From Alteriqipengyuania sp. (lineage in GTDB: Bacteria; Pseudomonadota; Alphaproteobacteria; Sphingomonadales; Sphingomonadaceae), in NCBI GenBank assembly GCA_964222325.1, contig CAXQBC010000013.1:59072-123071 (forward strand): a DNA stretch of 64,000 bases, given 5' to 3'. Shown here in pieces: positions 13,408 to 61,219 of the stretch; position 1 is the first letter of the stretch; every line of letters begins with the position of its first letter. The position numbers were made by a program, and so were the translations under genes. A model generated the notes under the pieces. It saw only the letters and a list, made by a program, of their open reading frames with translations, did no database searches and had not been told where the DNA came from.

Positions 13408-13418
13408 CGGAGTACCCC

Positions 13419-37619: not shown

Positions 37620-38291
37620 TCAAAGCCAGGAGATACCAAGATGATTGGCACCGTGCGCAAGCTCGCCGCCCAGAAATCCCTGCACCAGCACTAGAGCGGC
37701 CATGGCAAAGATTGCGGCGCGAAGCGCGGTCCGGCTCGCGGAAGCACGGCTCGCCAGATAGGCCATCGCCAGACCGAGGACCGCGATCAGCATCCCGTTC
37801 CATCGATGGACCTGCATGACGGCATCGCCGCCGAACCAAAGGCCGGTGTGGATCCATCCGAACAGGACTGCGACGACTGCGCCGATTGCTCCGCCGTGGA
37901 CGAGTACGCGCACCGCGCTCTCAAGCCCTGCATCTTTCCGGCGCATGACGAACAACTCGGTGGCAGCAGCCATGAGAAACAGGGCGATCGGGAAGTGGAT
38001 GGTCGCCGGATGCAGTTTTTTCAGGGCGGCGATGACGCCGGAATCGCCCTCATCAGCATGGCCACCAGCCTCGTCATGGCCTCCACTTGCTTCGTCGTGC
38101 GCGGCTGAGGGCTCGCCGACCGCTCCGCCGTCGCCCATCTGCGCCATGGCCGCCTGGTCATGCGCATCGCCATTCGCGGCGGCAGGCGCGGCGCTCGTCT
38201 CTTCGCCATGCTTTTCGTCGCCATGAGCCTGAACTGGTCCGACGAAGAGCAAGCTGGCAGCTACAATAGCCATGAATTGCATTCGTTTCAT
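37620..38291 (-). CDS. DUF2231-domain membrane protein with His/Asp/Glu-rich periplasmic N-terminus
   Basis: 223 aa. Signal peptide, then HGDEKHGEE...AHDEASGGHDEAGGHADEGD, then HPATIHFPIALFL (DUF2231). Confidence 0.75.
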   Translation of the reverse strand: MKRMQFMAIVAASLLFVGPVQAHGDEKHGEETSAAPAAANGDAHDQAAMAQMGDGGAVGEPSAAHDEASGGHDEAGGHADEGDSGVIAALKKLHPATIHFPIALFLMAAATELFVMRRKDAGLESAVRVLVHGGAIGAVVAVLFGWIHTGLWFGGDAVMQVHRWNGMLIAVLGLAMAYLASRASASRTALRAAIFAMAALVLVQGFLGGELAHGANHLGISWL

Positions 38292-38505
38292 TCTCTACGG
38301 GTTCCGGTCTTGGCGATGGTCGTGCGACCTATTGTGTCTGTAATGCTCTGCGAACCCTCATCTCTTGCCGTGATGGAGCGCGGTGATCCTCGGCGCGTGA
38401 GGGTCCAAATTTAACTCATGAGGGGGTTGGGTCTCTTGCCAATATCAGAGCCTTGTTAAGAGGGCGGCCAGCTTTAAGCACGAGCAAGAGCCCGGCTACC
38501 ATCTC

Positions 38506-38919
38506 CTAACCGTCTTGCGCCATGTTCTGGTGAGCCGCCATCTGCTTCATCATATCGTGCATCATCATCATGCGCTGGTGACAGGCCGCCATCATATCGG
38601 CGTTGTCCCCCTGCATCATGCCCGCCATGTGTTCCTGCATCGCTGTGCGGTGCTCGGCCATCAGCCTTTGGCGTTCGGCAGGATCGCTCGCCGCGTGGGC
38701 CTGCTGCATCAGCGCGCGCATTTCAGCCATCTTCTCGCGATGGGCAGCCATAGCGTCGGAATCCTGCATCGTGTGGCCAGCGTGATCCTGCTGCTGTGCC
38801 ACAGCCTGAGCTCCGTGCTCATGCTGTTCCTGGGCCGTCGCCGGAGTGGCTGTCAGGCCAGTGGCGAGAATGAGAGCTAGAGCTGTCCGTTTCACAATCG
38901 ATTTCCTTTCGTCGGTCAT
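38506..38919 (-). CDS. Met/His-rich periplasmic protein (probable Cu-binding)
   Basis: 137 aa. HEHG, DHAGHTMQDSDAMAAH, MQEHMAGMMQGDNADMMAACHQRMMMMHDMMKQM. An alternative GTG start at 38895 has a better SD. The 38976 start is rejected because it would include the promoter motif. Confidence 0.7.
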   Translation of the reverse strand: MTDERKSIVKRTALALILATGLTATPATAQEQHEHGAQAVAQQQDHAGHTMQDSDAMAAHREKMAEMRALMQQAHAASDPAERQRLMAEHRTAMQEHMAGMMQGDNADMMAACHQRMMMMHDMMKQMAAHQNMAQDG

Positions 38920-38947
38920 GCGATGGGTGCTGTGCGCATTCATTCTC

Positions 38948-38976
38948 TTTACGCAGCCAACATCTGTTCCCCTCAA
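38948..38976 (-). promoter_or_regulatory. ECF-type promoter motif TTGAGGG-N16-CGTAAA
   Basis: Minus strand reads TTGAGGG gaacagatgttggctg CGTAAA. The -10 element ends 28 nt before ATG 38919. Confidence 0.55.
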
Positions 38977-39956: not shown

Positions 39957-40691
39957 TCAGGGTGCGTTCGGCACATGTTTCGCCCGCCGCCTGATTCTGG
40001 GAAACCGGTTCGCAAGCAGGACAAAGCCCGAAACCGCGATAATCGTCCCGCCGATCCCGAACAATAGCAGCCACCAGCTGTTGATGCGGTCGCGCTGCGT
40101 CCAGTCCATGATATGCAGCCCCCAGACAAAATCGAACAGGCGCCAGGTGTCGCTGCGGGCAGCGAGCACCGAGCCACTCGATGCATCGATGTAGACGCGG
40201 GTATTGTCCTCATCGCCGTAGGTGATCTGCCACGCCGGAAACGGACCCCGGAATTCGGTCCCGACAGCATCTTCGATGAGGCGCGTGGTCGCTATGGTGG
40301 TTGGTGGCCCGGTCCAGGCATAGCGAGCGATGGCCTGTGCGCTTGCAGCGGGAAGAGGCGAAAGGAGAATGCCGCTGTCCGGGTCGCGGAGCGTGACGCT
40401 TCCATCGTCCCGGCGGACCTCGGTTACGGCCCTGCCGCCGACCGCGCGCGTCGCAAGGGAAACCACCCCCTCGCTGCTATCGAGCCAATGGGGCATGACA
40501 GCATCAGCGGGCAGGACCTCCGGCGCGCGCGAAACGACATGTTCGGACCGAACCTCTTCGATGTCGAGAAACGACATCAGCGCCCCGGTGATCATCCACA
40601 GGAGCACTTGGACGCCGACAAAGATCGCCAGCCATTTGTGAAGCTTGCTGCCCAGCACATGAAGACGCAGCTTGAAAGAGCGTGTCGCCAA
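39957..40691 (-). CDS. PepSY-domain membrane protein
   Basis: 244 aa. KLHKWLAIFVGVQVLLWMITGALMSF is the PepSY-associated TM pattern, with a second TM at the C-terminus. Confidence 0.7.
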   Translation of the reverse strand: MATRSFKLRLHVLGSKLHKWLAIFVGVQVLLWMITGALMSFLDIEEVRSEHVVSRAPEVLPADAVMPHWLDSSEGVVSLATRAVGGRAVTEVRRDDGSVTLRDPDSGILLSPLPAASAQAIARYAWTGPPTTIATTRLIEDAVGTEFRGPFPAWQITYGDEDNTRVYIDASSGSVLAARSDTWRLFDFVWGLHIMDWTQRDRINSWWLLLFGIGGTIIAVSGFVLLANRFPRIRRRAKHVPNAP

Positions 40692-40711: not shown

Positions 40712-41272
40712 TCAGTTGTTACGCGGTGCGCGTGACGATGAATGGTACTGAACGATCTTCCAGCCATCTGCATCATGGGCGAGGACCGAGGTCGCAACCC
40801 CTTCGCGGTCGATTACGCGACCGTCGGCCAGTTCGATCCGATAGGTGTACGTTTCGCGGCCATACGCCATATGTCCCATCCGGGTGACTGCGAGCGTCGG
40901 TTCGCCGAAGGTGAAGCTGGTTATTGCATCGAGTTCCGGTCCCAGGTGATGCTCCATGTAATGCGTGAAGCTGCCTTCCGCCTTGCCGTTTTCGTAAATG
41001 AAGGATTCCTGGGCAAACAGCGCAGCCATGGCCTCTGCATCGCGCGACGTCAGGGCATCGCGATATGATGTCAGAATTGCTTCTGCCCCAGCAACGTCAT
41101 CGTTCATCGCAGCCATATGCTCGGCATGGTTCATGCCCTGCTCCGTATGATCCATCGGCGTTGATACCGAATGTTCCGAATGCGCCGAATGGTCCATGGA
41201 TTGTGCCAGGGCGGGAGTGCCCCCTGCAGCCAAGGCCAGGGCGACCGCGCTTAGAGATAGTCTCGTTCTCAT
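40712..41272 (-). CDS. NTF2-like (DUF4440/SnoaL-like) periplasmic protein with His/Met-rich N-terminal extension
   Basis: 186 aa. Signal peptide, then MDHSAHSEHSVSTPMDHTEQGMNHAEHMAAM, then an NTF2-like core (ILTSYRDALTSRDAEAMAALF...GWKIVQYH). Confidence 0.7.
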   Translation of the reverse strand: MRTRLSLSAVALALAAGGTPALAQSMDHSAHSEHSVSTPMDHTEQGMNHAEHMAAMNDDVAGAEAILTSYRDALTSRDAEAMAALFAQESFIYENGKAEGSFTHYMEHHLGPELDAITSFTFGEPTLAVTRMGHMAYGRETYTYRIELADGRVIDREGVATSVLAHDADGWKIVQYHSSSRAPRNN

Positions 41273-41288: not shown

Positions 41289-42491
41289 TTAAAACCAGAA
41301 TCGCAAGCCCACGACGTAATTCATCACGCTGGGGTCTTCCCCTGCGGCGCGGGCAAAATCGGCGCCCTCACCGATCCGCCACTCCTGGGAGACGCCGACA
41401 TAGGGCGCGAATTCGCGTGCGAACTCGTAGCGAAGACGCAGACCTGCCTCGATCCGGTCGAGGCCAGCGCCAATGCCGAGTTCGGGAATATCCTGAGCCG
41501 AAAGAGCGATTTCGGCTCGCGGCTGGAGGATCAGCCGCTGCGTGATGCGCTGATCAAGCTCGCCCTCAAAGCGCGCCGTTACATCGCCCTTGCTCGATAC
41601 GAACGCCGCGACGTCGATCTCGAACTGGTAAGGGGCAATGCCCTGGACACCGATGACCGCATGGGTGCGCTCGGGCCCCGTCAGATCCTGACGGACACCG
41701 GCTTGGAAATCGAAGAAGGGTGCGATGGCGCGGCTCCAGAGCGCCTGGACCTCGGCGCCCTCGACGGGCTCACCGAAGCTGCCTTCACCCTCGGATTTGA
41801 ACCAGAACTTGTCGATATCACCGCCATAATATCCCTGGATATCCCAAAGATATCCATCAGCTCCTTCGCGTGCGCGATACTCAAGGCGGTCGCCCTGAAA
41901 CCAGAAGCGCATCCCGCCGTCGGTCTCACGGACAAGTTCGCGCCGCGCTTCGTTCATGGCTTCCTCGCCCCAGATCGCAACCGCCGCGCGCGCGGGACCG
42001 CTCCCAGCTTCGGGAGGAGGCGGCAGCAGCGGGATATCGTCGTTCGAGCCCATCTGCATCGCCGAATGGTCCATGCCCTGCATGTCCTGCGATCCCATCT
42101 GCCCATGGTTCATCTGGCTGTGATCCATCTGCCCATGGTCCATCGACGAGCTGCTGGCTTCCGCCTGCCCCATGTCGCCGCGGTTCATTTGCGAATGATC
42201 CATCGCGCCTTCGTCAGGCCTGCCCTGCGGCATCGAACCATGATCCATCGTCGAATGGTCCATCGCAACTTCAGGCTGGGCAGCGGGGCCGCAAGCCCCC
42301 TCTGCTACCGGATGCCCCATCGCGCGATGGCGCTCGGCTGCCGCCTCGCACTTTGTTTTGGCGTCAGCCTGCGCCTCGGCGCTCTGCTGCGGTTCCACTG
42401 GCGAGTGACCCGCATGCTGCGCCGCGGCGGGGGAGGCGAGAACCGAACCCGCGGCGGCCGAGGCAAGCAGGCTGATGATAGATATCTTCAT
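41289..42491 (-). CDS. copB: Copper resistance protein B (outer membrane)
   Basis: 400 aa. Met/His repeats (MDHSTMDHGSM, MDHSQMNRGDMG, MDHGQMDHSQMNHGQMG). The beta-barrel ends in VVGLRFWF. ATGA overlap with the copA stop. Confidence 0.9.
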   Translation of the reverse strand: MKISIISLLASAAAGSVLASPAAAQHAGHSPVEPQQSAEAQADAKTKCEAAAERHRAMGHPVAEGACGPAAQPEVAMDHSTMDHGSMPQGRPDEGAMDHSQMNRGDMGQAEASSSSMDHGQMDHSQMNHGQMGSQDMQGMDHSAMQMGSNDDIPLLPPPPEAGSGPARAAVAIWGEEAMNEARRELVRETDGGMRFWFQGDRLEYRAREGADGYLWDIQGYYGGDIDKFWFKSEGEGSFGEPVEGAEVQALWSRAIAPFFDFQAGVRQDLTGPERTHAVIGVQGIAPYQFEIDVAAFVSSKGDVTARFEGELDQRITQRLILQPRAEIALSAQDIPELGIGAGLDRIEAGLRLRYEFAREFAPYVGVSQEWRIGEGADFARAAGEDPSVMNYVVGLRFWF

Positions 42492-44335
42492 GCGCCCTCT
42501 CCGGCAGGATTGGCAACCGTGACGATCTGAAACATCCCGGCATGCATGTGATAGAGAAGGTGGCAGTGGAAGGCCCAGTCGCCCGGCTCGTCCGCCGTCA
42601 GGTCGAACTGCGCGCTGCCACCCGGTTGCAGGATAACCGTGTGCTTCAGTGGTTGACGGTTTGGAGGTGCACCGTTGACCAGCTCGAAGAAGTGTCCGTG
42701 CAGATGGATCGGGTGTGCCATCATCGTGTCATTGATCAGCTTTACCCGCACGCGTTCATTATAGGCAAAGCGGATCGGCTCCTCGGAGACGGCGGAGAAT
42801 TTCTTGCCGTCGAACGACCACATGTAGCGTTCCATGTTCCCGGTAAGATGGATTTCCATCCGGCGCGAAGGGCTTCGCGAGTCCTTGTTTGGTGTCAGCG
42901 CGCGCAGCTTGCGATAGTCGAGGGTACGGTGCGGGACATCGGCAAGGCCAATCCCGGGATCGCCCATCCGGTCGACCGGGTTCATCGACACCATGTCGAT
43001 GCCCGGTCCGACCTTCACATCGGGAGGCAATAGCGAGGTATCGCGCATCTGCATGCCTCCCGCCATGCCAGCCATTCCGGTCATCTCCGCCGAACCGCCA
43101 TCCATACCGGACATCCCGTCCGCGCCAGCCGCTCCGCTCGATCCGTGATCCATTCCGGCCATCCCGCCAGCGCCATGGTCCATGCCGGCCATACCAGCAT
43201 CGCCGCCGGAGCCATGGTCCATACCGCTCATGCCCATATCGGCCATAGTGAGCAGCGGGGGATCGCGCAGCGGCGGGATGGCCGCACGCGCGCCGGGCGT
43301 GCTCGCCAGCGTTGCGATGCCCATACCTGACCGATCCATCGACTCCGCCATCAGCGTGTAAGCCTGCTGCTCACCCGGCGTCACCACGACGTCGTAGGTT
43401 TCCGCGACGCCGATCTGGAACTCGTCCACTTCGACCGGCTCGACGTTCTGCCCGTCGGCTTGAACCACGGTCATCGGCAGGCCGGGAATGCGAATATTGA
43501 AAAATGTCATGGCGCCGGCATTGATGAACCGAAGCCGCACACGCTCGCCCGGACGGAAAAGATATTCCAGATTGTCGAGCGGTCCATGACCGTTCAGCAG
43601 ATATGTATAAGTTGCGCTCGACACATCGAGGATGTCGGTTGGCATCATGCGCATTCTGGCCCACATCCGGCGATCCTCGCCCGAGAGCGGATAGTCGTCG
43701 GTCCAGGTATTCTGGTTGTAGTTGAAGTAGCCTTCGCCCTTCTTGAGCTTGTCGAATATCGTGTGGGGCGACATTTCGCTGAACTCGCTCAGCACCACGA
43801 TATATTCGCGGTCGGCCTGCACCGGATCGGGACCTGCGGGATCGACCACGATCGGACCATAATGACCGGCCTGTTCCTGCAGCCCGCTATGCGAATGCCA
43901 CCAATAGGTGCCTGCCTGCCGCACGGGAAATTCCGCTGTGAAGGTCTCGCCCGGCTTCACGCCGGGAAAACTTACGCCCGGCACGCCATCGAGCTGGAAC
44001 GGCACGAGCAGGCCATGCCAGTGGATCGAGGTGTCTTCCTCAAGCTGGTTATGGACGTTGAGGCGGACGGTGGTCCCTTCGCGCAGGCGAAGGAGTGGCC
44101 CAGGGATGCTGCCATTGACGGCAATCGCGCCGCCACGCCTGTTGCCGGTGGAGAAAGCCGAGCGCGCAACCGTCAGATCGATATTCGGTCCGGTCGCCTC
44201 ATCGATACCTCGCCGGGCGGCCCCGGAGAGCAGATCTCCGCCTCGCGCCCAAGCGGGAACGGCACCGCCCAGGCCAAGCAGGCCCAGCCCGCTGGCACTT
44301 GTTCCAAGAAATTTTCGGCGATTGACGGCAGGCAT
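42488..44335 (-). CDS. copA: Copper resistance multicopper oxidase CopA/PcoA (Tat-secreted)
   Basis: 615 aa from MPAVNRRKFLGTS (twin-arginine), with AGGAG 8 nt upstream. HWHG, WWHSH and HCHLLYHMHAGM copper sites plus a Met-rich insert. The ORF is open to 44356, but that start leaves no leader after the promoter motif. Confidence 0.9.
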   Translation of the reverse strand: MPAVNRRKFLGTSASGLGLLGLGGAVPAWARGGDLLSGAARRGIDEATGPNIDLTVARSAFSTGNRRGGAIAVNGSIPGPLLRLREGTTVRLNVHNQLEEDTSIHWHGLLVPFQLDGVPGVSFPGVKPGETFTAEFPVRQAGTYWWHSHSGLQEQAGHYGPIVVDPAGPDPVQADREYIVVLSEFSEMSPHTIFDKLKKGEGYFNYNQNTWTDDYPLSGEDRRMWARMRMMPTDILDVSSATYTYLLNGHGPLDNLEYLFRPGERVRLRFINAGAMTFFNIRIPGLPMTVVQADGQNVEPVEVDEFQIGVAETYDVVVTPGEQQAYTLMAESMDRSGMGIATLASTPGARAAIPPLRDPPLLTMADMGMSGMDHGSGGDAGMAGMDHGAGGMAGMDHGSSGAAGADGMSGMDGGSAEMTGMAGMAGGMQMRDTSLLPPDVKVGPGIDMVSMNPVDRMGDPGIGLADVPHRTLDYRKLRALTPNKDSRSPSRRMEIHLTGNMERYMWSFDGKKFSAVSEEPIRFAYNERVRVKLINDTMMAHPIHLHGHFFELVNGAPPNRQPLKHTVILQPGGSAQFDLTADEPGDWAFHCHLLYHMHAGMFQIVTVANPAGEGA

Positions 44336-44365
44336 AGGGGGCTCCTGAGAAGGCATATACCGTCA

Positions 44366-44394
44366 CTTACGCGGCCACCTGCGCTACCCCTCAA
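44366..44394 (-). promoter_or_regulatory. ECF-type promoter motif TTGAGGG-N16-CGTAAG in front of copA
   Basis: Minus strand reads TTGAGGG gtagcgcaggtggccg CGTAAG. The -35 box is formed by the last codons (ttT GAG GGg tag) of the sigma gene. Confidence 0.55.
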
Positions 44395-44950
44395 AGTTTT
44401 CGAACCGCTCCTTCAGCCGGTTGCGCGCACGATAGATGCGCGTCTCGACAGCTTTCTCCGTGGTGCCGAGCAGCTCGGCAGCCTCGGCCTGGCTGTATCC
44501 CTCGACAGTGACCAGCACGAGCGCCTCTTGCAGCCGCACCGGCAAGCGCCCGATTTCGGCCTGGACCAGCCGCAGCTGTTCGCGGGCTCCGGCAACATTT
44601 TCGGGATTGGGGGCATCGTCGGCAACGGCGTCGGCTTCCCGCCCGTCCGGCAAACTAAGGAAGCCCGCAACTTTCCTCCGGCGGAGCCTGTCGCGGCACC
44701 GGTTGAGAACGATTGTCGTCAAATAAGGACCGATGGGCTTGCTCGGATCGAGGCGATGCCGTGTCAGCCAGACCGAAGCGAGACTGTCCTGGACGACATC
44801 TTGGGCCCGCGAGGGTGAACCCAGCATACGCGTGGCGAGCGCAATCAACCTAGCGATCTCATGCTCGACCAGAGCTGTGAACGCCCGCTTGTCACCGGCT
44901 ATCGCCCGCCCGATCAGAGCTTCGTTCGAAGTGTCATCCACCACTGCCAA
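44384..44950 (-). CDS. ECF (group IV) RNA polymerase sigma factor, CnrH-like position
   Basis: 188 aa. Region 2 is DVVQDSLASVWL. Region 4 is LPVRLQEALVLVTVEGYSQAEAAELLGTTEKAVETRIYRARNRL. Confidence 0.9.
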   Translation of the reverse strand: MAVVDDTSNEALIGRAIAGDKRAFTALVEHEIARLIALATRMLGSPSRAQDVVQDSLASVWLTRHRLDPSKPIGPYLTTIVLNRCRDRLRRRKVAGFLSLPDGREADAVADDAPNPENVAGAREQLRLVQAEIGRLPVRLQEALVLVTVEGYSQAEAAELLGTTEKAVETRIYRARNRLKERFENFEG

Positions 44951-44956
44951 GGCTGA

Positions 44957-45391
44957 TCAGTCACGCGGATCGCGCGTGAGGGCCGCGGACACTTTCCGGT
45001 CGAACTGAAGCTGCTGATCGGGATCGAGAATTTCCCGCATGTCGAAGACGTGGCGCACGGTCGCTTTTTGCAAATCGCCCATGCGCGCATGCACCTCGTC
45101 GATCGCGGCACTGACTTCGGGCCCGTATTCGTGCTCGGTTTCCATTGCCTGGGCGAGCTGGGCGTTGGCTGCGCGCGCAGAGGCTTCGAGCCTTGCCTGT
45201 TCTACCGCGAAACGCGCTTCGAGCGCGTCGAGCCGCTGCTCCTGATCAGCCGTGAGCGAGAGTTCATCGTGCACGAACTGGTGCAGGCTACCCTCGGCAT
45301 CGTTGTTGGACCAGCGATCGGCGGCAAGCGCTCCGAGGCATCCGGCGAGCGCCGCCAGCAGGACCGCGAGGACAAGGTGAAACTTCTTCAA
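44957..45391 (-). CDS. Periplasmic heavy-metal sensor, CnrX-like (Metal_resist family)
   Basis: 144 aa with an N-terminal anchor. Has H37-x3-H41, E58 and H114-x3-M118 in LHQFVHDE ... LEARF ... RHVFDMR. Confidence 0.8.
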   Translation of the reverse strand: MKKFHLVLAVLLAALAGCLGALAADRWSNNDAEGSLHQFVHDELSLTADQEQRLDALEARFAVEQARLEASARAANAQLAQAMETEHEYGPEVSAAIDEVHARMGDLQKATVRHVFDMREILDPDQQLQFDRKVSAALTRDPRD

Positions 45392-45394
45392 CGC

Positions 45395-45685
45395 CTATGA
45401 CCCCACATGAAGCAAAGCAGCGGGCGACAGGGATTCTCCGCCAACGAGGCTCTCGCCAACAATTTCTGTAGGAGCGCCATATTCGGACGGCCATCCGCTG
45501 GTCCCTGCGCCTGCCGCCAGGCCGACGACAAACAGACCGGCGAACAAGGCCATTCTGCGTCGCTGATCGGCAATTTCGCCAAGCTGTCCTGCGCGCTGCC
45601 AGACGCCGTTCATGAAGTCGGGCGGCACGTCGCCAGCCTCCTGCGACGCGCCGAGCATCGCATCGAGTGTCTGATTATCACGCAT
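45395..45685 (-). CDS. Small single-pass anti-sigma factor, CnrY-like position
   Basis: 96 aa. Cytoplasmic N-terminus, one TM (MALFAGLFVVGLAAGAG), short periplasmic tail. AGGAG SD. First gene of the operon. Confidence 0.6.
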   Translation of the reverse strand: MRDNQTLDAMLGASQEAGDVPPDFMNGVWQRAGQLGEIADQRRRMALFAGLFVVGLAAGAGTSGWPSEYGAPTEIVGESLVGGESLSPAALLHVGS

Positions 45686-45713: not shown

Positions 45714-45742
45714 TATACGCGACACTTCGCGCAAACCCTCAA
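45714..45742 (-). promoter_or_regulatory. ECF-type promoter motif TTGAGGG-N16-CGTATA (autoregulatory position)
   Basis: Minus strand reads TTGAGGG tttgcgcgaagtgtcg CGTATA. The -10 element ends 28 nt before the anti-sigma ATG. Confidence 0.6.
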
Positions 45743-45748
45743 GATAAT

Positions 45749-45777
45749 TTGAGGGCAAGAAGCAATTGATGCGTAAA
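45749..45777 (+). promoter_or_regulatory. ECF-type promoter motif TTGAGGG-N16-CGTAAA (divergent partner)
   Basis: TTGAGGG caagaagcaattgatg CGTAAA, 104 nt upstream of the DUF411 gene. Confidence 0.55.
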
Positions 45778-45881: not shown

Positions 45882-46349
45882 ATGAGTTTCATCAATCCAT
45901 CAAAACCGTTCAGTCGTTCGCTGGCGGCTTCGCTCCTCCTCGCCCTTGCAGCCTGCTCGAATGCGGCCCAGGCCGCGACATACACGATGTACCGCGACGC
46001 AGGGTGCGGGTGCTGTCTTAACTGGGCCGGTCACGTAGAACACGGGCTCGAAGCGGAGGTCGCCTCGGTCGACTCCGACGACATGGCTGCACTAAAGACA
46101 GCCAGGGGTGTACCGCAGGATCTGTGGTCGTGCCACACGATGGAAGTCGATGGCTATATCATCGAAGGCCACGTGCCGGCCGATGCCGTCGCGAAGCTAT
46201 TACGCGAACGCCCCGAAGGAGTGGCAGGCCTGGCCGTGCCCGGAATGCCGCTTGGCTCGCCCGGGATGGAACTCGGGGACCAGGTGCAGCCCTATGATGT
46301 CATCGCCTTCGGCCCAGGCGGGCGGAGCGTGTTCGCATCCTACCCGTGA
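45882..46349 (+). CDS. DUF411 (CopG-type) metal-binding lipoprotein
   Basis: 155 aa. Lipobox LALAAC. YRDAGCGCCLNW, CHTMEVDGYIIEGHVP, PGMPLGSPGME. Confidence 0.85.
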   Translation: MSFINPSKPFSRSLAASLLLALAACSNAAQAATYTMYRDAGCGCCLNWAGHVEHGLEAEVASVDSDDMAALKTARGVPQDLWSCHTMEVDGYIIEGHVPADAVAKLLRERPEGVAGLAVPGMPLGSPGMELGDQVQPYDVIAFGPGGRSVFASYP

Positions 46350-47677: not shown

Positions 47678-47706
47678 TTGAGGGATGAGCCCCGACCGAA
47701 CGTACT
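47678..47706 (+). promoter_or_regulatory. ECF-type promoter motif TTGAGGG-N16-CGTACT
   Basis: TTGAGGG atgagccccgaccgaa CGTACT, 48 nt upstream of the permease ORF start (TTG 47755). Confidence 0.45.
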
Positions 47707-47754
47707 GTCCGGCATGATCTTTCTTGAACGGGAGACCATCGACAGGGGAAAGTC

Positions 47755-49107
47755 TTGCAAGACCATGAGCACGAGAATCAAAGCGAAACAGCTGGCTCGA
47801 TAACCCTGCTGGGCGGCGTGGCGATGGGAACCGGCGTCATGATCGGTGCCGGCATATTCGCGCTGACCGGGCAGATCGCCGAGCTTGCCGGTCCGCTCTT
47901 CCCCTTATCCTTCATCGCTGGCGCGCTGGTAACCTCGCTGGCGGCGTACAGCTATATCAAGATGTCGAACAAATGGCCGTCTTCGGGCGGCATCGCGATG
48001 ATCTTGCAGAAAGCATACGGACCCGGCGTGATCGCCGCCTCTGCCTCGCTCCTAATGGCGCTGTCGATGGTGATTAACGAGAGCCTCGTGGCCCGCACCT
48101 TTGCCACTTACGCGCTGCGCCCGTTCGGCCTCGAAAGCAGCGGGTGGCTCGTTTCTCTCGCAGCGCTTGCCGTCATCATTTTCGCCTATCTCGTCAATGC
48201 AGCGGGCAACAGGTCGGTAAGCGGCTTCTCGCTTATCATGTCCGCCATCAAGATCGGCGGCATCGCGCTGTTCGCAGTCGCCGCGATCTTGGCCAGCGGT
48301 TTTTCATCAGGCGCATTTTCGCAGCCCGTCTCGCTGACCAATGCAGAAGCCCTGCTCGCCTCGGTTGCTTTCTCGATCCTCGCCTTCAAGGGCTTCACCA
48401 CGATTACCAATAGCGGCGGCGAAATCGTCGACCCGCACAAGAATGTCGGCCGGACGATCATGATCTCGATCGCGGTCTGTATCGTGATCTATCTGCTTGT
48501 CGCAGTGGCGGTGGGTTCGAGCCTGAGCATATCCGAGATCGTCGAGGCGCGCGATTATTCGCTCGCAGCAGCGGCGCGTCCGGCGCTGGGAGAACTGGGC
48601 TTCTATTTCACCGTCGCGATCGCGATCGCCGCAACGACTTCGGGCGTGATCGCGAGCGTATTTGCCGTGTCGCGCATGCTTGCGATGCTGACCGACATGA
48701 AGATGATCCCGCACAGCCATTTCGGCATGAGCGGCGGGATACGCAGCCACATGCTGGTCTATACGGTGGTCATTGCCGGGACGCTTGCCGTCCTGTTCGA
48801 TCTGTCGCGGATCGCCTCGCTGGGCGCCTTCTTCTACCTCGTCATGGATATGCTGGTGCACTGGGGCGTCCTGCGTCACCTGCGCAAGGAAGTCGGCGCG
48901 CGAGCATCAATACTTCTTACAGCACTCGCGGCAGATGGCGTGGTCCTCGCAGCCTTTACCGCGGCCAAATTGCGCAGCGATCCTGCCGTTGTCGCCTATG
49001 CGGCGATCGGCATCGTCGCGGTGTTCGTGGGGGAATGGATCTACCTCTCGCGCAATTCCGAAGCGCCCGCTTCTCACAAAGATGATCGGTCAGGAGAGAA
49101 GAGTTGA
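47755..49107 (+). CDS. APC-family amino acid/polyamine permease
   Basis: 450 aa, about 12 TM. GGVAMGTGVMIGAGIFALTG. TTG start. The N-terminus QDHEHENQ is His/acid-rich. Confidence 0.85.
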   Translation: MQDHEHENQSETAGSITLLGGVAMGTGVMIGAGIFALTGQIAELAGPLFPLSFIAGALVTSLAAYSYIKMSNKWPSSGGIAMILQKAYGPGVIAASASLLMALSMVINESLVARTFATYALRPFGLESSGWLVSLAALAVIIFAYLVNAAGNRSVSGFSLIMSAIKIGGIALFAVAAILASGFSSGAFSQPVSLTNAEALLASVAFSILAFKGFTTITNSGGEIVDPHKNVGRTIMISIAVCIVIYLLVAVAVGSSLSISEIVEARDYSLAAAARPALGELGFYFTVAIAIAATTSGVIASVFAVSRMLAMLTDMKMIPHSHFGMSGGIRSHMLVYTVVIAGTLAVLFDLSRIASLGAFFYLVMDMLVHWGVLRHLRKEVGARASILLTALAADGVVLAAFTAAKLRSDPAVVAYAAIGIVAVFVGEWIYLSRNSEAPASHKDDRSGEKS

Positions 49108-56891: not shown

Positions 56892-59222
56892 TCACCGGGC
56901 GAAGCTCAAGCCGCGCAGACGCAGGGCGTTGCCGATCACAGACACCGAAGACAAGCTCATCGCCGCTGCCGCGATCATCGGGCTGAGTAGCACTCCGAAG
57001 AATGGAAACAGTACGCCTGCTGCGACCGGAATGCCGAGCGTATTGTAAGCGAAGGCGAAAAACAGGTTCTGCCGGATGTTGCGCATCGTTCCGCGCGACA
57101 GCACGGTGGCCTGCACCACTCCTGTCAAATCACCACGAACCAGTGTGACCCCGGCGCTTTCGATCGCCACATCGGTACCAGTGCCCATGGCAATACCAAC
57201 ATCGGCGGCAGCCAGCGCAGGAGCATCGTTGATCCCGTCCCCGGCCATGCCGACCCGGCGACCTTGCGCTTTCAGCTCTTCGATCTTGCGGTGCTTGTCT
57301 TCGGGCGAGACATTGGCGTGTACCTCGTCGATACCCATTTCGCGCGCGACCGCTTCGGCAGTGCCGCGGCTGTCGCCCGTGAGCATAACGACCCGGATAT
57401 CGCGCTTGTGCAGAGCCGCAATGGCCGCTGCACTGGTAGGCTTGATCGGATCGGCCACCGCGATGAGCCCTGCCGGACGGCCATCGAACGCAACGAACAT
57501 CACCGTCTGACCCTGCTTGCGGCCATTTTCGGCCGAGCCGAGCCAGGCCTCGTCATCGATCCCGACGCGCCGCATCATCTTTTCGTTGCCGATCGCAACC
57601 CGGCCCCCCTGGACATTGGCTTCAACACCTTCCCCGGTCGTCGAAGCGAGATCCGTGGCATTGGCGGGCGAGACGCCGCGCGCTTTTGCGCCTTCGACGA
57701 TGGCATGGGCCAGCGGATGCTCGCTGCCCATTTCGACACCTGCAACCGCTGCCAGGAATTCAGTTTCGTCGATGCCGTCTGCAGGCTTCACCGCCACCAG
57801 ATCGGGCTTGCCTATCGTCAACGTGCCGGTCTTGTCGACCACCAGCGTATCGATCTTCTCGAGTGTCTCCAGCGCTTCGGCATTGCGGATCAGGATGCCG
57901 TGCTGGGCACCCTTGCCTGTGCCTGTCATGATCGACATCGGCGTAGCGAGGCCAAGCGCGCAGGGACAAGCGATGATCAGGACCGCAATGGCATTGACCA
58001 ATGCGTAGGCAAGCGCAGGGGCGGGACCCCAGATTGCCCAGACCACGAAGGTGGCGATGGCGATCACAACCACCGCAGGCACAAACCAGCCAGCCACCTG
58101 ATCGGCGAGCCGCTGGATCGGTGCGCGGCTGCGCTGCGCGTCGGCCACCATCTGGACGATCTTGGACAGCATCGTGTCCTTGCCCACGCCGGTTGCGCGC
58201 ATGACGAACCCTCCAGTCTGGTTGACCGTGCCGCCGATGACAATGTCGCCAGCCTGTTTGGCGACCGGAAGCGGTTCGCCGCTGATCATGGATTCATCGA
58301 TCGCGCTCGATCCCTCCTCGATTTCGCCATCGACGGGAACCTTGTCGCCGGGTCGAACGCGCAGACGATCGCCTGTGGTTAGCTGATCGAGCGGCACCTC
58401 GCGCTCGTCGCCTGAGCCAAAGATCTTGACCGCGCTGGGCGGTGCCAGCTCGAGCAGTGCGCGCAAGGCGCTCGAGGTCGAACCCCTGGCCTTGAGCTCG
58501 AGGACCTGTCCGAGCAGAACGAGCGTCGTGATGACCGCTGCCGCCTCGAAATAGACCCCGACCCGTCCCGAATGGTCGCGGAACGCTGCAGGGAACAGAT
58601 CGGGCGCGACCGTCGCCACGACGCTAAAAAGATAGGCGATGGCCACGCCGAACCCGATCAGGGTGAACATGTTGAGATTGCGCGTCTTGAGCGACTGGAT
58701 GGCCCGAACGAAGAACGGCCAGGCGCCCCATAGAACCACCGGGGTTGCGAGCGCAAATTGCGCCCACTGCGCCCAGGCCGGTTCTATCAGACGGTCGAAA
58801 CTGAGCCCCGGTGCCATGTCGCTCATCGCATAGACGAACAGAGGCAGCGTGAGCAGCGCGCTCCACCAGAACCTACGCAGCATGTCGACCAGTTCGGGGT
58901 CGGGGCCATCGCCCAGCGAAACGGTTTCCGGTTCGAGCGCCATGCCGCAAATCGGGCATGAACCCGGCCCGGGCTGGCGGATTTCAGGGTGCATCGGACA
59001 GGTGTAGATCGTGCCTTCGGGCACATCCTCGACCGCGTCGAGATGCGCGCCCGAGAGATAGAGCTCGGGATCGGTGACGAACTTGTCGTGACAGCGCGGC
59101 GAACAGAAATAGTGTGTCGCGCCCTCATGCGTCGCGATATGCTGAGCCCCGTCGATTGCAACGCTCATGCCGCATACCGGGTCGATCGCGGTACCCTCGA
59201 TCACACTCTGGTCCTTGCTCAT
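56892..59222 (-). CDS. Copper-translocating P1B-type ATPase with YHS/TRASH and CPxCGM N-terminal metal-binding domains
   Basis: 776 aa. DPVCGMSV...[11 protein letters not shown]; [24 protein letters not shown]; the CPC motif ([13 protein letters not shown]); DKTGT; GDGINDAP. Confidence 0.93.
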
Positions 59223-59234
59223 CGCCTGTCCTTT

Positions 59235-60779
59235 CTAGCTCTTCACGACTACGAACTGCCCCATCATGCCTGCATCCTCGTGTTCGAGAATGTGGCAGTG
59301 ATACATGTAGGGCAGGTCTGGGTCGGTGTGTTCTTCAAAACGCAGGAGAAGGCGTACCTGCTCGCGCGGGTTGACGATCACGGTATCCTTCAAACTGGTT
59401 TCCAATGGTGGGGGCGCTCGGCCATCGCGGTCGATCACACGAAACTGGACGTTATGGATATGAAACGGGTGGGCCATCATCGAAGCGTTGGCGATCTCCC
59501 AGATTTCCCATTGGCCGACTGGCACACGTTCGTTGATCACATTCATGTCCATCGCAGCACCGTTAATGGACATTCCGCCGCCCATCATGCCCATGTCGAG
59601 AACGAAACGCCGGGTTCGGACGGCTGACGACGGGTCGGTTGGAGCAAGCGATGCCAGTTGTGTCGGCACCCTGATGCGCTGGGCCGAACTTGCCGGCCTG
59701 ATATCGAGGATTTGAAACACGTCTGCGGAAGCATCGCCGCTATCGCCGCGCCCCATCATCCCGCCGCCCATCATTCCGCGTCCGCCCATCATGCCCATGG
59801 CGTTTTCGGGACTGCTGGCAAGAAGGCGAAGCGGGCGTCCTTCCGAGAGATCGATAATTACCTGCGCGCGCTCCCCCGGGGCGAGCCTGACCGAGCGGAC
59901 GATGTGCGAACGATCGAGCAAGCCGCCATCGCTCGCGATCAGTTGCATCGAACGATCACCTTCGAGCGAAAAATCGTAAAGGCGGGCGTTCGATCCATTG
60001 AGGATGCGCAGCCGCAATTGGCCTGTCTGTGCGTCGAACACAGCGTTTTCAGTGCCGTTGACGAATATCCGGCTCCCGCGCACGCCCATCATCCGCGCGT
60101 GCATACTCAGCGGGTACACCAAGCGGCCGGATCCATCGATCACGCGGTCCTGCACGATCAGCGGAATGTCGTCGACGCCATAGTCGCTCGGCAAGTCGAG
60201 GCGCTCTTCCTCGTCGTCGCGAACATAGATCGGTGCGGCGAGCCCGGCATAGACCTGCGGCCCGGCTCCGCGCTCCAAGTGTGAATGATACCAGTAGAGC
60301 GAAGCCCGCTGGCGAACTTGGAAAGAAGGCCTCCAGCGTTCGCCGGGACGGATCAACTGATGCGGTCCGCCATCGGCTGCGGCAGGAAGTTCGAAACCAT
60401 GCCAATGGACCGTAGCGCCTTCGGCCAGCTTGTTGTCGATATGGAACTGCACCCACTCGCCCCGGCGCATTTCCAGCGTCGGTCCCAGATAGGGTGCGTC
60501 GATGCCGATGGTGGGCGAAGCAACACCGGTGACGAATTCCTTCTGGCCTGGGGTCAAAGACAAGCGGAAAACCCGTGCGCCCTGCTCAATCTCGCCACGC
60601 TGCAAGGGCGGTATAGCGAGCAAATTGGATCCGTCAGTGCTGTCCAGCATCGATGCGTCTTGCGCTTTGCATCCCGCAAGCGGGAACGCGGCAAAGCCTG
60701 CAGCAGCAAAACCAGCGCTTTTGATCAGTGTGCGGCGGTCCACGGGGAATGCCTGGGTTATGCGGGGTGTCCGGATCAT
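59235..60779 (-). CDS. CueO-like multicopper oxidase (Tat-secreted) with Met/Gly-rich inserts
   Basis: 514 aa from MIRTPRITQAFPVDRRTLIKSAGF. HWHG, WYHSH, HPFHIHN and HCHILEHEDAGMM motifs. Insert NAMGMMGGRGMMGGGMMGRG. Confidence 0.88.
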   Translation of the reverse strand: MIRTPRITQAFPVDRRTLIKSAGFAAAGFAAFPLAGCKAQDASMLDSTDGSNLLAIPPLQRGEIEQGARVFRLSLTPGQKEFVTGVASPTIGIDAPYLGPTLEMRRGEWVQFHIDNKLAEGATVHWHGFELPAAADGGPHQLIRPGERWRPSFQVRQRASLYWYHSHLERGAGPQVYAGLAAPIYVRDDEEERLDLPSDYGVDDIPLIVQDRVIDGSGRLVYPLSMHARMMGVRGSRIFVNGTENAVFDAQTGQLRLRILNGSNARLYDFSLEGDRSMQLIASDGGLLDRSHIVRSVRLAPGERAQVIIDLSEGRPLRLLASSPENAMGMMGGRGMMGGGMMGRGDSGDASADVFQILDIRPASSAQRIRVPTQLASLAPTDPSSAVRTRRFVLDMGMMGGGMSINGAAMDMNVINERVPVGQWEIWEIANASMMAHPFHIHNVQFRVIDRDGRAPPPLETSLKDTVIVNPREQVRLLLRFEEHTDPDLPYMYHCHILEHEDAGMMGQFVVVKS

Positions 60780-60835
60780 GCTCCTCCTGTTTCGCGATGG
60801 GCGGCACCAGATTTGCCTGGCACCGCCCAACCGAT

Positions 60836-61219
60836 TTACTCCTTCGTGATCGACGTGATCACACTGCCTTCAGAACCAGTACGAAATTCAAAGGCAATGC
60901 CCTCACCGACGCTTACTTCGCTGCGCAGTTGCTCATCGGCTTCGAACGCCATGGTCATTGCCGGCCATTCGATTGCGGGAACCGGGCCGTGGTCGACGGT
61001 GATCGTACCCGCTTCGGCGTCGATGGCGGTGACGGTGCCTTGCGCACTCGCGGACTGCATTGCGTTGCCGGTATCCGCCATCGGCATATCCTGGCCGTCC
61101 ATCATCATTGCATCTTCAGCCATCGGCATGTCCTCCATCTCGGCAGTGTCCTGGCCAGAATCGCAGGCTGCCAGCGCCAGCGGCGCGGCCAATAGGGTTA
61201 TGAGGGTTGTGTGACGCAT
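60836..61219 (-). CDS. cusF: CusF-like periplasmic copper-binding lipoprotein
   Basis: 127 aa. Lipobox LALAAC. Met-rich linker [22 protein letters not shown]. The core [32 protein letters not shown] is CusF-like. The start overlaps the cusA 3' end by 22 nt. Confidence 0.75.

What the first reader, a model, noticed from the sequence alone, without database searches (positions are those of the whole stretch)
44384..45685. Complete CnrY-CnrX-CnrH-type signalling module, attached to copAB instead of an RND nickel/cobalt pump
The gene order and sizes are a small one-TM protein (96 aa), a membrane-anchored periplasmic Metal_resist-type sensor (144 aa) and an ECF sigma (188 aa). This reproduces the cnrYXH layout of Cupriavidus metallidurans as I recall it (about 95, 148 and 191 aa).

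The sensor has H37, H41, E58, H114 and M118. As far as I recall from the CnrX structural work, the Ni/Co ligands are H42, H46, E63, H119 and M123. That is a constant offset of 5 for all five residues. The local sequence (LHQFVHDE..., ...GDLQKATVRHVFDMR) also resembles CnrX.

No cnrCBA-like pump follows the module. The operon runs straight into copA-copB, and the predicted regulon is copper-flavoured. Two readings are possible. Either a Ni/Co-type sensor controls copper hardware, or this ligand set has been retuned to copper. I do not know of either being described.
Basis: partly seen in the sequence, partly recalled or inferred. Interest (0 to 1): 0.75.

Follow-up and report, generated by a model that had tools for sequence, protein, structure and literature searches.

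The report
CnrXH-type metal-sensing module driving copAB
A three-gene membrane signalling unit, whose sensor and sigma factor are related to the nickel/cobalt switch CnrYXH of Cupriavidus, sits in front of the copper-resistance genes copAB and probably switches them on; this arrangement is common in Sphingomonadales, but I found no paper describing it.

Summary
Three tightly packed minus-strand genes (96, 144 and 188 aa) occupy 44384-45685.

- **Sensor:** it is a clear CnrX/NccX homologue (E about 1e-20, 39% identity, predicted fold TM-score 0.77-0.86). All five CnrX metal ligands align at a constant offset of 5.
- **Sigma factor:** it is 41% identical to CnrH, far closer than to any other solved ECF sigma.
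- **Small protein:** it matches CnrY in position, size and topology, and it shares a C-terminal SPxxLL motif. It is not a detectable CnrY homologue: no PF17524 hit, and hhalign probability about 1%.
- **Promoters:** TGAGGG-N16-CGTA occurs six times in the window (0.14 expected). The sites include one before the module, one divergent, and one directly before copA. The copA site mirrors cnrCp (CGAGGG-N17-CGTATA).
- **Conservation:** 76 of the 80 closest species-level loci have sensor-sigma-copA-copB, and 72 of those 76 keep the copA promoter.
- **Ligand set:** HHEHM is found in 82 of 115 family representatives whatever hardware lies nearby, so it does not mark Ni/Co sensing. CnrX/NccX is the atypical branch.

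Most likely this is a copper-responsive variant of a known signalling type, common but with no published description found. Copper induction is inferred, not shown.

The parts
45395..45685 (-). 96-aa single-pass membrane protein, putative anti-sigma factor (positional and topological counterpart of CnrY)
   Evidence: ORF. It has no Pfam, NCBIfam or PDB match. About 60 homologous clusters exist, all unnamed. Conserved features are DFMDGVWQRAGQL, an RRRR-plus-transmembrane segment, and a C-terminal LSPAALLHVG. The AF2 secondary structure is H3-14, H24-63 and H89-92, at low confidence. R43-R44, S87-P88 and L91-L92 occupy the same positions in CnrY. The protein is homologous to the small ORFs upstream of distant sensors (hhalign 97.9%) but not to the CnrY family.
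44957..45391 (-). 144-aa membrane-anchored periplasmic metal sensor, CnrX/NccX homologue (ligands H37, H41, E58, H114, M118)
   Evidence: Supported. The AF2 model has pLDDT 82 with helices 2-29, 36-43, 48-85, 91-121 and 124-139. The top 15 Foldseek PDB hits are all CnrX or NccX, with target-normalised TM-scores of 0.70-0.86 (0.77-0.86 for the CnrX soluble domains).
44384..44950 (-). 188-aa ECF sigma factor, CnrH-type
   Evidence: Pfam regions 2 and 4. Matches CnrH 4cxf at 2.2e-26 and is 41% identical to CnrH.
45714..45741 (-). Predicted autoregulatory promoter of the module: TGAGGG (45741-45736), N16, CGTATA (45719-45714)
   Evidence: The strict motif is present at this place in 43 of 80 related loci. 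It resembles cnrYp, AAGGGG-N16-CGTATA.
45750..45777 (+). Divergent promoter of the same type (TGAGGG-N16-CGTAAA), back to back with the module promoter and facing the DUF411 gene
   Evidence: Conserved in 66 of 80 related loci.
44366..44393 (-). Predicted copA promoter, TGAGGG-N16-CGTAAG. It overlaps the sigma stop codon and is the counterpart of cnrCp
   Evidence: Conserved in 72 of 76 loci that carry copA. cnrCp is CGAGGG-N17-CGTATA.
42488..44356 (-). copA, a Tat-exported multicopper oxidase. The true start is probably ATG 44335
   Evidence: TIGR01480 at 780 bits, three Cu-oxidase domains and a Tat signal.
41289..42491 (-). copB, outer-membrane copper resistance protein with a His/Met-rich N-terminal half
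   Evidence: PF05275 at 287 bits.
40712..41272 (-). SnoaL_3/DUF4440 secreted protein with a His/Met-rich N-terminus, conserved after copB
   Evidence: Conserved position.
39957..40691 (-). PepSY_TM membrane protein, conserved at the end of the copAB unit
   Evidence: Conserved position.
45882..46349 (+). DUF411 (CopG-like) protein downstream of the divergent promoter
   Evidence: PF04214 at 92 bits. Conserved neighbour.
37620..38975 (-). A further motif copy (38950-38975), followed by a His/Met-rich 129-aa secreted protein (38506-38895) and a DUF2231 membrane protein (37620-38291)
   Evidence: The motif lies about 80 nt upstream of this gene in related loci.
47679..49107 (+). A motif copy (47679-47704), followed by an APC-family permease (47755-49107)
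   Evidence: The motif is conserved 75-77 nt upstream of the permease start in diverged loci.
56892..60905 (-). A motif copy (60880-60905) inside the 3' end of the cusF-like gene, ahead of a second multicopper oxidase (59235-60830) and a copper P-type ATPase (56892-59222). Membership of the regulon is unverified
   Evidence: The -10 element here is CGTACT, and conservation elsewhere was not checked.

Best explanation
This is a three-component transmembrane ECF signalling module of the CnrYXH type.

Proposed mechanism, all steps inferred by analogy with CnrYXH:
1. The 144-aa sensor is held in the inner membrane by an N-terminal helix. It exposes a four-helix periplasmic domain with a 3His/1Glu/1Met metal site.
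2. The 96-aa single-pass protein holds the ECF sigma factor at the membrane through its cytoplasmic N-terminal 44 residues or so. Its periplasmic tail (LSPAALLHVG) contacts the sensor.
3. Metal binding in the periplasm changes the contact between the sensor and the small protein, and the sigma factor is released.
4. The free sigma factor directs RNA polymerase to TGAGGG-N16-CGTA(A/T) promoters. These lie before its own operon (positive feedback), directly before copA-copB-SnoaL-PepSY_TM, divergently before a DUF411 gene, and before at least two further gene sets.

The inducing metal is most likely periplasmic copper, because every conserved target and neighbour is copper hardware.

What is shown: homology of the sensor and the sigma factor, conservation of the ligands, the gene order, and the comparative promoter footprint. 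What is inferred: anti-sigma function of the small protein, release of the sigma factor, and copper as the signal.
For: - Sensor: homologous to CnrX/NccX, with all five ligands aligned and the same fold predicted.
- Sigma factor: closest to CnrH by a wide margin.
- Gene order and packing: as in cnrYXH.
- Motif statistics: six sites in the window against 0.14 expected, and none of 100 shuffles reached six.
- Motif spacing: across related loci a 16-nt spacer gives 236 sites, against 15 or fewer for any other spacing from 13 to 20. The spacer sequence itself varies.
- Motif conservation: present before copA in 72 of 76 loci and divergently in 66 of 80.
- Match to known CnrH promoters: the motif resembles cnrCp and cnrYp, the published CnrH -10 element CCGTATA, and the ECF291 consensus read as its reverse complement.
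- Context: sensor-sigma-copA-copB occurs in 76 of the 80 closest GTDB species loci, in Tara and NCBI contigs, and on sphingomonad and Caulobacter plasmids beside copCD, cueR, a P-type ATPase, DUF305 and DUF411.
- Exceptions: L036 carries conjugation genes after the sigma factor; L080 is still copper-linked, with CopB-like and CopD genes.
- CnrX and copper: CnrX itself was crystallised with copper at this site (PDB 3epv; reference).
- Small protein: it has the CnrY length, an Arg pair before the transmembrane segment and SPxxLL at the C-terminus. Two cytoplasmic helices are predicted, like the two CnrY helices that clasp CnrH (PMC4598750).
Against: - No experiment was available, so copper induction rests on guilt by association.
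- The small protein has no detectable sequence homology to CnrY/NccY (PF17524 not matched; hhalign probability 1% or less). Its model is of low confidence (pLDDT 57).
- The first-shell ligands are identical to those of a Ni/Co sensor, so the sequence does not exclude a response to Ni, Co or several metals.
- The strict promoter pattern before the module itself is found in only 43 of 80 loci.
- The site before the second oxidase has a weaker -10 element, and its conservation was not checked.
- In CnrX, copper is not listed among the inducers.
Confidence: 0.7

Rival explanations
1. The sensor keeps CnrX-like Ni/Co specificity. Nickel or cobalt, not copper, therefore switches on the copper hardware, as cross-protection or as an evolutionary leftover.
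For: The five ligands are identical to those of CnrX, including the Met that Ni and Co recruit. The sensor is 39% identical to CnrX.
Against: - No Ni/Co export gene lies in the operon or the window.
- The copAB linkage and its promoter are conserved across 48-98% sensor identity in 76 of 80 species loci. That is hard to explain for a mismatched signal.
- The ligand set is family-wide whatever the output.
- CnrX/NccX differ from the rest of the family at conserved positions: Q50/H101/M104/Q126 against E55/E106/A109/H131.
Confidence: 0.07
2. The module is a broad sensor of periplasmic divalent metals or of envelope stress, responding to Cu and also to Zn, Ni, Co, Cd or Ag. The copper genes are only its locally attached output.
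For: A 3His/Glu/Met site binds several metals in CnrX: Ni, Co, Zn and Cu structures all exist. Distant relatives with the same ligands sit next to CzcA-like, CusA-like, oxidase and ATPase genes. The regulon includes genes of unclear metal relation, such as the APC permease and DUF2231.
Against: Within this clade every conserved neighbour with a known role is copper-specific: CopA, CopB, CopC/D, DUF411, CueR with a Cu-ATPase, and CusA/F. In CnrX, binding and activation are separable, since Zn binds but does not activate.
Confidence: 0.18
3. The 144-aa protein is a CpxP/Spy-like periplasmic chaperone or adaptor, not a signal-transducing metal sensor. The sigma factor is controlled in some other way.
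For: There is a weak LTXXQ Pfam hit (27.4 bits). CpxP and Spy appear as remote structural neighbours. JGI names some homologues 'Spy/CpxP family protein refolding chaperone'.
Against: - CnrX/NccX hits are about five orders of magnitude better than CpxP/Spy hits.
- All metal ligands are invariant or nearly so in 63 distinct clade members.
- The protein has a membrane anchor, not a cleavable signal peptide. The Cys of the apparent lipobox is not conserved (C in 39 of 63).
- The sensor is followed by the sigma gene in all 80 genome loci and in nearly all metagenome contigs long enough to show it.
Confidence: 0.05

Closest known systems
CnrYXH of Cupriavidus metallidurans CH34 (plasmid pMOL28), with the paralogous NccYXH
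   Same: - The gene order is small single-pass protein, membrane-anchored periplasmic sensor, ECF sigma factor, with nearly identical sizes (96/144/188 against 95/148/191 aa).
- The sensor is 39% identical, with the same predicted fold and the same five ligands.
- The sigma factor is 41% identical.
- There are two promoters of the same type, one before the module and one directly after the sigma gene in front of the output genes (GAGGG-N16/17-CGTATA).
   Different: - The output is copA-copB-SnoaL-PepSY_TM plus other copper genes, not the CnrCBA RND pump and CnrT.
- The small protein is not a member of the CnrY family PF17524.
- The sensor carries the family-typical Q50, H101, M104 and Q126, and clade-typical M83, E86 and H87, where CnrX and NccX have E55, E106, A109, H131, I, N and P.
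- A third, divergent promoter sits back to back with the module promoter.
- The host is an alphaproteobacterium (Erythrobacteraceae), not a betaproteobacterium.
- The inducing metal is presumably copper.
ECF291 group of the ECF sigma factor classification (Casas-Pastor et al. 2021)
   Same: [quoted passage not shown] The published group consensus (ATACGC / CCCTCA) is the reverse complement of the motif found here.
   Different: [quoted passage not shown] Formal assignment with the ECF Hub models could not be run.
CopRS, PcoRS and CusRS two-component systems that control copABCD/pcoABCD
   Same: They also sense periplasmic copper and induce the CopA multicopper oxidase and the CopB outer-membrane protein.
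   Different: They use a histidine kinase and a response regulator rather than a sensor, anti-sigma factor and ECF sigma factor. There is no homology.
CorE (and CarQ/CarR) of Myxococcus xanthus, the copper-responsive ECF sigma factors listed in reviews
   Same: An ECF sigma factor switches on a multicopper oxidase and copper export genes in response to copper.
   Different: CorE binds copper itself in the cytoplasm through a Cys-rich extension and has no anti-sigma factor. It belongs to a different ECF group (ECF44/ECF238) and has no periplasmic sensor.
CpxP / Spy / ZraP (the LTXXQ and Metal_resist superfamily)
   Same: These are remote structural relatives of the sensor's helical hairpin fold.
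   Different: They are soluble periplasmic chaperones or adaptors. They lack the membrane anchor, the HHEHM site and the ECF partner.

Membership tests
CnrX/NccX periplasmic metal sensors (Pfam Metal_resist PF13801) | Significant sequence match to the family model and to CnrX/NccX | tested here: met
   PF13801 at 59.8 bits against a cut-off of 29.2. NccX 2.3e-20 and CnrX 9.5e-20. 39% identity over 137 aa.
CnrX/NccX periplasmic metal sensors (Pfam Metal_resist PF13801) | Four-helix hooked-hairpin fold behind an N-terminal membrane anchor | tested here: met
   The AF2 model has pLDDT 82 with helices 2-29 (anchor), 36-43, 48-85, 91-121 and 124-139. The top 15 PDB matches are all CnrX or NccX, with target-normalised TM-scores of 0.70-0.86 (0.77-0.86 for the CnrX soluble domains). 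This is a prediction only.
CnrX/NccX periplasmic metal sensors (Pfam Metal_resist PF13801) | Metal ligands His42, His46, Glu63, His119 and Met123 | tested here: met
   H37, H41, E58, H114 and M118 align to them. In 63 distinct clade members they are present in 63, 62, 62, 63 and 63 sequences respectively.
CnrX/NccX periplasmic metal sensors (Pfam Metal_resist PF13801) | Activation by Ni(II) or Co(II) | not testable with these tools
   The genomic context argues for copper instead. CnrX/NccX-specific residues E55, E106, A109 and H131 are not shared.
CnrH-type ECF sigma factors (ECF291) | Regions sigma-2 and sigma-4 only, with closest similarity to CnrH | tested here: met
   2.2e-26 to CnrH against 1.2e-12 to the next solved ECF, and 41% identity.
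CnrH-type ECF sigma factors (ECF291) | Sensor gene at position -1 and a small single-pass anti-sigma gene at position -2 | tested here: met
   Gene order, conserved. The group is defined.
CnrH-type ECF sigma factors (ECF291) | Target promoters like cnrYp and cnrCp (GAGGG ... CCGTATA) | tested here: met
.
CnrH-type ECF sigma factors (ECF291) | Formal assignment by the ECF Hub group models | not testable with these tools
   No ECF Hub models were on hand, and the paper's supplement is not held.
CnrH-type ECF sigma factors (ECF291) | A metal-efflux RND operon as the conserved output | tested here: not met
   The output is copAB. The only RND pump in the window is CusA-type, 16 kb away.
CnrY/NccY anti-sigma factors (Pfam PF17524) | Match to the family model or profile | tested here: not met
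   No Pfam hit even at E up to 10, whereas CnrY scores 175 bits as a control. No PDB hit to 4cxf chain B with either the sequence or a profile. hhalign against the CnrY family gives probability 1% or less.
CnrY/NccY anti-sigma factors (Pfam PF17524) | About 95 aa, cytoplasmic N-terminus of about 45 aa with two helices, one transmembrane helix and a short periplasmic tail | tested here: met
   96 aa with an Arg cluster at 43-45 before the hydrophobic stretch 46-63. Predicted helices are 3-14 and 24-63, with a tail at 64-96 (low-confidence model).
CnrY/NccY anti-sigma factors (Pfam PF17524) | C-terminal periplasmic segment that docks on the sensor dimer | tested here: inconclusive
   S87-P88-x-x-L91-L92 occupies the same positions as in CnrY (...ASPFGLLIGK). 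The motif [SA]PxxLL is conserved in the small ORFs found upstream of the sensor in nearly all of the 80 loci and recurs as PSTLL in many of the distant ones. Docking itself could not be tested.
CnrY/NccY anti-sigma factors (Pfam PF17524) | Binds and inhibits the cognate sigma factor | not testable with these tools
Cop-type copper resistance (CopA multicopper oxidase with CopB) | CopA and CopB family models matched above their cut-offs, with the genes adjacent | tested here: met
   TIGR01480 at 780 bits against a cut-off of 479. PF05275 at 287 bits.

The most novel reading that the evidence does not exclude
The CnrX sensor family may be, in the main, a copper-sensing (or more general metal-sensing) family, and the textbook Ni/Co sensors CnrX and NccX a small derived branch. 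On this reading, metal specificity is set not by the invariant 3His/Glu/Met first shell but by a second set of conserved residues. These are Q50, H101, M104 and Q126 here, against E55, E106, A109 and H131 in CnrX, perhaps together with M83, E86 and H87. It may also depend on a different, so far unclassified, anti-sigma partner family. The Sphingomonadales module would then be the first periplasmic sensor, anti-sigma and ECF pathway for copper, and a natural specificity swap on one scaffold.
Probability: 0.3. Interest if true: 0.7.

Novelty: new variant of a known kind. Interest (0 to 1): 0.55.

Why it matters
- **A different regulator for copAB.** Control of copAB/pcoAB is normally ascribed to CopRS-type two-component systems. 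Reviews list only CorE and CarQ as copper-related ECF sigma factors. Here a whole order of environmentally abundant bacteria seems to use a CnrXH-related transmembrane ECF pathway instead, both on chromosomes and on conjugative plasmids.
- **A test case for metal selectivity.** The first-shell ligands are identical to those of the structurally best-studied periplasmic Ni/Co sensor. The pair therefore offers a clean way to ask how metal selectivity is encoded beyond the ligands.
- **Possible tools.** The sharply defined promoter (TGAGGG-N16-CGTA) and the compact three-gene cassette could also serve as a copper biosensor or as an orthogonal switch.

Tried and rejected
- **CnrY in the PDB.** Searching with the small protein alone found nothing relevant. 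A 21-sequence profile gave only spurious WD40-repeat hits on the motif VW-R-GQL, which I rejected as chance.
- **Profile comparisons with CnrY.** hhalign of the small-protein profiles against CnrY or the CnrY family, in local and global modes, was not significant. I therefore do not file the small protein under CnrY.
- **Locus scans.** Narrower alignments worked. The genome scan returned only the 80 closest of 563 confirmed relatives, so family-wide context statistics are incomplete.
- **Plasmid search.** A search with the distant representative P0304 only found the sphingomonad and Caulobacter group again.
- **Cluster look-up.** The look-up of distant representatives gave no taxonomy.
- **Residue 104 and output type.** I looked for a correlation between residue 104 (M or Q) and the type of output among 21 metagenome loci. 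There was none.
- **Lipoprotein reading of the sensor.** LAGC at 15-18 gives an LPAM_1 score of 19.6, below the cut-off of 20. I rejected this reading because the Cys is not conserved and the hydrophobic stretch continues past it.
- **Papers not held.** The primary CnrX and CnrY structure papers and Grass et al. 2000 are not in the library; a look-up of Tibazarwa et al. 2000 failed on a search-term error and was not repeated. The ECF classification supplement is not held either.
Full report
**1. The observation**

The region 44384-45685 holds three minus-strand ORFs of 96, 144 and 188 aa, separated by 3 and 6 nt. Downstream on the same strand lie four more genes:
- copA (42488-44356), matching TIGR01480 at 780 bits, with three Cu-oxidase domains and a Tat signal
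- copB (41289-42491), matching PF05275 at 287 bits
- a SnoaL_3/DUF4440 protein
- a PepSY_TM protein

The window comes from an Erythrobacteraceae genome. Near-identical sensor proteins are named from Citromicrobium and Qipengyuania.

**2. The sensor**

- It matches Pfam Metal_resist above the cut-off.
- Among all PDB sequences it matches only CnrX and NccX significantly, at E 2e-20 to 1.5e-17. The next hit has E = 1.1.
- It is 39% identical to CnrX over 137 residues.
- H37, H41, E58, H114 and M118 align with CnrX H42, H46, E63, H119 and M123. The literature gives these as the Zn/Ni/Co ligands, with Met123 recruited only by the activating metals.
- An AlphaFold2 model (pLDDT 82) has an N-terminal membrane helix followed by four helices.
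- Its 15 best PDB matches are all CnrX or NccX, with target-normalised TM-scores of 0.70-0.86 (0.77-0.86 for the CnrX soluble domains). There is then a gap of about five orders of magnitude in E-value before CpxP and Spy.

**3. The sigma factor**

It has regions 2 and 4 only. Its best solved relative is CnrH at 2.2e-26, against 1.2e-12 for SigW, and it is 41% identical to CnrH.

**4. The small protein**

Evidence against membership of the CnrY family:
- It has no Pfam, NCBIfam or PDB match.
- CnrY and its ten relatives all carry PF17524. CnrY scores 175 bits as a control, whereas the window protein and its relatives score nothing even at E up to 10.
- Profile-profile comparison with the CnrY family is not significant (probability 1% or less).

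Resemblances to CnrY:
- The length is almost the same, 96 against 95 aa.
- An Arg pair sits at positions 43-44, just before a hydrophobic stretch.
- S87-P88-x-x-L91-L92 occupies the same positions as in CnrY (...ASPFGLLIGK).
- The predicted secondary structure is two cytoplasmic helices, the second running into the transmembrane helix, then a disordered periplasmic stretch and a short C-terminal helix. The model is of low confidence.
- CnrY uses two cytoplasmic helices to clasp CnrH. Its structural class includes NepR, which has no sequence similarity to it. Lack of sequence similarity is therefore weak evidence against an equivalent role.

Evidence that the small protein belongs to a wider, separate family:
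- Small ORFs with a C-terminal [SA]PxxLL motif precede the sensor in nearly all of the 80 related genome loci.
- In many of the distant metagenome loci the tail recurs as PSTLL.
- The two sets are homologous to each other (hhalign 97.9%, E 5e-13).

I conclude that the small protein belongs to an unclassified family that holds the CnrY position throughout most of the sensor family. It is probably an anti-sigma factor, but it is not a demonstrable CnrY homologue.

**5. Promoters**

Upstream of the small gene lies a palindrome, CCCTCAA-N6-TTGAGGG. Each arm is followed after 16 nt by CGTA(A/T)A.

The pattern TGAGGG-N15-17-CGTA occurs six times in the window, against 0.14 expected, and none of 100 shuffles reached six. 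The six sites are:
- before the module
- divergently, before a DUF411 gene
- overlapping the sigma stop codon, directly before copA
- before a His/Met-rich secreted protein and a DUF2231 gene
- before an APC-family permease
- inside the 3' end of a cusF-like gene, ahead of a second multicopper oxidase and a Cu-type P-type ATPase

Comparative support from the 80 related loci:
- The strict pattern is present before copA in 72 of 76 loci, divergently in 66 of 80, and before the small gene in 43 of 80. The spacer sequences vary freely.
- The spacing is sharply 16 nt: 236 sites, against 15 or fewer for any other spacing from 13 to 20. A T-rich run precedes the -35 element.
- The permease site keeps its distance of 75-77 nt from the start codon in diverged loci.

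Comparison with the cnr promoters on pMOL28:
- cnrCp reads CGAGGG-N17-CGTATA, and cnrYp reads AAGGGG-N16-CGTATA.
- This agrees with the published CnrH -10 element CCGTATA.
- The ECF291 consensus quoted in PMC13492112 (-35 ATACGC, -10 CCCTCA) is the exact reverse complement of GCGTAT / TGAGGG. The back-to-back divergent promoters seen here would explain that.

The architecture thus parallels cnr. One promoter serves the regulatory genes and a second, placed right after the sigma gene, serves the output genes.

**6. How common it is**

- The sensor has 536 relatives among 50%-identity cluster representatives.
- A scan of one genome per GTDB species confirmed 563 relatives. The 80 closest (48-98% identity) are almost all Sphingomonadales, and 76 of them have sensor-sigma-copA-copB in a row.
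- Of the exceptions, L036 carries conjugation genes directly after the sigma gene. L080 has a CopB-like gene after the sigma gene and a divergent copD.
- A cluster at 74% sensor identity lies on at least 266 contigs with the same order.
- 82 plasmids, mostly from Sphingobium, Sphingomonas and Novosphingobium and many of them conjugative, carry a homologue.
- The plasmids inspected show the trio beside copCD, cueR with a P-type ATPase, copAB, DUF305 and DUF411.

**7. The ligand set is not a Ni/Co signature**

- Of 115 full-length family representatives, 82 have HHEHM.
- In a distant clade recovered from metagenomes, the sensor is followed by an ECF sigma gene wherever the contig is long enough. 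The neighbouring hardware varies: CzcA/CnrA-like RND pumps, CusA-like RND pumps, multicopper oxidases, CopAB and P-type ATPases. All 21 sensors checked have HHEHM.
- CnrX, NccX and their nearest representative differ from the rest of the family at strongly conserved positions. Q50 (93% of the family), H101 (88%), M104 (68%) and Q126 (96%) are E55, E106, A109 and H131 in CnrX.
- In 63 distinct copAB-linked sensors, H101 and M104 are invariant, and M83, E86 and H87 are nearly so.
- CnrX is therefore the unusual member. I could not place these residues in three dimensions, and residue 104 does not track the output type. Their role is open.

**8. Mechanism and signal**

By homology and anatomy the most likely mechanism is that of CnrYXH:
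1. Metal binds in the periplasm to the sensor dimer.
2. The sensor's contact with the tail and transmembrane helix of the small protein changes.
3. The sigma factor is released.
4. Transcription starts from the TGAGGG-N16-CGTA promoters, including positive feedback on the module itself.

Copper is the most likely signal because every conserved target or neighbour of known function is copper hardware. No Ni/Co exporter is present. CnrX can bind copper at this very site (PDB 3epv). None of this is experimental. A response to several metals remains possible, and a pure Ni/Co response is unlikely.

**9. Comparison with what is known, and novelty**

- The module is a member, in the wide sense, of the CnrH-type ECF group ECF291. 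[quoted passage not shown]
- This module differs in its output (copAB), its probable signal (copper), its anti-sigma family, and conserved second-shell residues of the sensor.
- Reviews of metal-responsive ECF sigma factors and of copper signalling list only CorE and CarQ for copper, and CnrH for Ni/Co.
- Full-text searches for CnrX-, CnrH- or CnrY-like systems linked to copper or to sphingomonads found nothing.
- NCBI annotates the genes only as 'periplasmic heavy metal sensor' and 'RNA polymerase sigma factor', and the small gene as hypothetical.

I rate it a new variant of a known kind. It is common in genomes, I found no published study of it, and it is of moderate interest.

Noticed in passing
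window 44335-44393 (- strand): The copA ORF listed from ATG 44356 probably starts at ATG 44335, which is M8. The conserved promoter's -10 element (44371-44366) leaves only about 10 nt before 44356. An AGGAG lies 7 nt upstream of 44335. The sigma protein's last codons (F-E-G-stop) double as the -35 element.
   Followed up: partly
window 47679-49107 (+ strand); L008 5945, L020 5754, L028 5276, L033 5098, L038 2326, L050 2507: An APC-family amino-acid/polyamine permease carries the same ECF-type promoter 75-77 nt upstream of its start in diverged loci. It seems to be a conserved regulon member with no obvious link to copper.
   Followed up: partly
window 37620-38975 (- strand): A 129-aa secreted protein very rich in His and Met (38506-38895) has no Pfam family. 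It lies behind another copy of the promoter motif and is followed by a DUF2231 membrane protein. The pair is conserved in the closest loci.
   Followed up: partly
window 45714-45777; PMC13492112 Table 4: The ECF291 promoter consensus quoted from the ECF Hub (-35 ATACGC, -10 CCCTCA) is the exact reverse complement of the GCGTAT / TGAGGG elements found here. The back-to-back divergent promoters upstream of these operons would explain a motif read on the wrong strand. That paper then used the consensus to assign CnrH promoters in C. metallidurans.
   Followed up: partly
sensor residues Q50, H101, M104, Q126 (window 44957-45391), also M83, E86, H87: These positions are strongly conserved across the family (93%, 88%, 68% and 96% of representatives). 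H101 and M104 are invariant in 63 copAB-linked sensors. CnrX and NccX instead have E55, E106, A109 and H131. They are candidate specificity or coupling determinants, but their place in the structure was not determined.
   Followed up: partly
window 45395-45685; L090-L155 upstream ORFs: The small proteins upstream of CnrX-family sensors form one wide family of about 90-115 aa. They share an N-terminal LDxxL...F..VW.R motif, one transmembrane helix and a C-terminal PS/AxLL motif. The family has no Pfam model and is distinct from PF17524 (hhalign between the two clades 97.9%).
   Followed up: yes
window 56892-63960 (- strand): A second copper cluster is present: cusA (runs off the window end), a cusF-like gene (60836-61219), a CueO-like multicopper oxidase with a Met/Gly-rich insert (59235-60830) and a P-type ATPase with YHS and HMBD domains (56892-59222). 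One motif copy (60880-60905, -10 element CGTACT) lies inside the 3' end of cusF. Its conservation was not checked.
   Followed up: no
window 46831-47568 (+ strand): A Schlafen/AlbA_2-domain gene lies between the 91-aa gene and the permease. It is absent at that place in the closest loci (L008 type) but present in others (L028, L033, L037), so it is a variable insert within the copper island.
   Followed up: no
L036 (Erythrobacter longus) 8001-15791; L088 10327-13839: In some genomes the module is cut off from copAB by mobile DNA. The inserts are TrwC relaxase and coupling protein genes in L036, and a Mu-type transposase and a recombinase in L088. This leaves orphan small-sensor-sigma trios.
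   Followed up: partly
window 24457-26973 (- strand) and 30335-36022 (+ strand): A full-length LigD (phosphoesterase, ligase and primase-polymerase domains) and a 1895-aa autotransporter lie upstream of the copper island.
   Followed up: no
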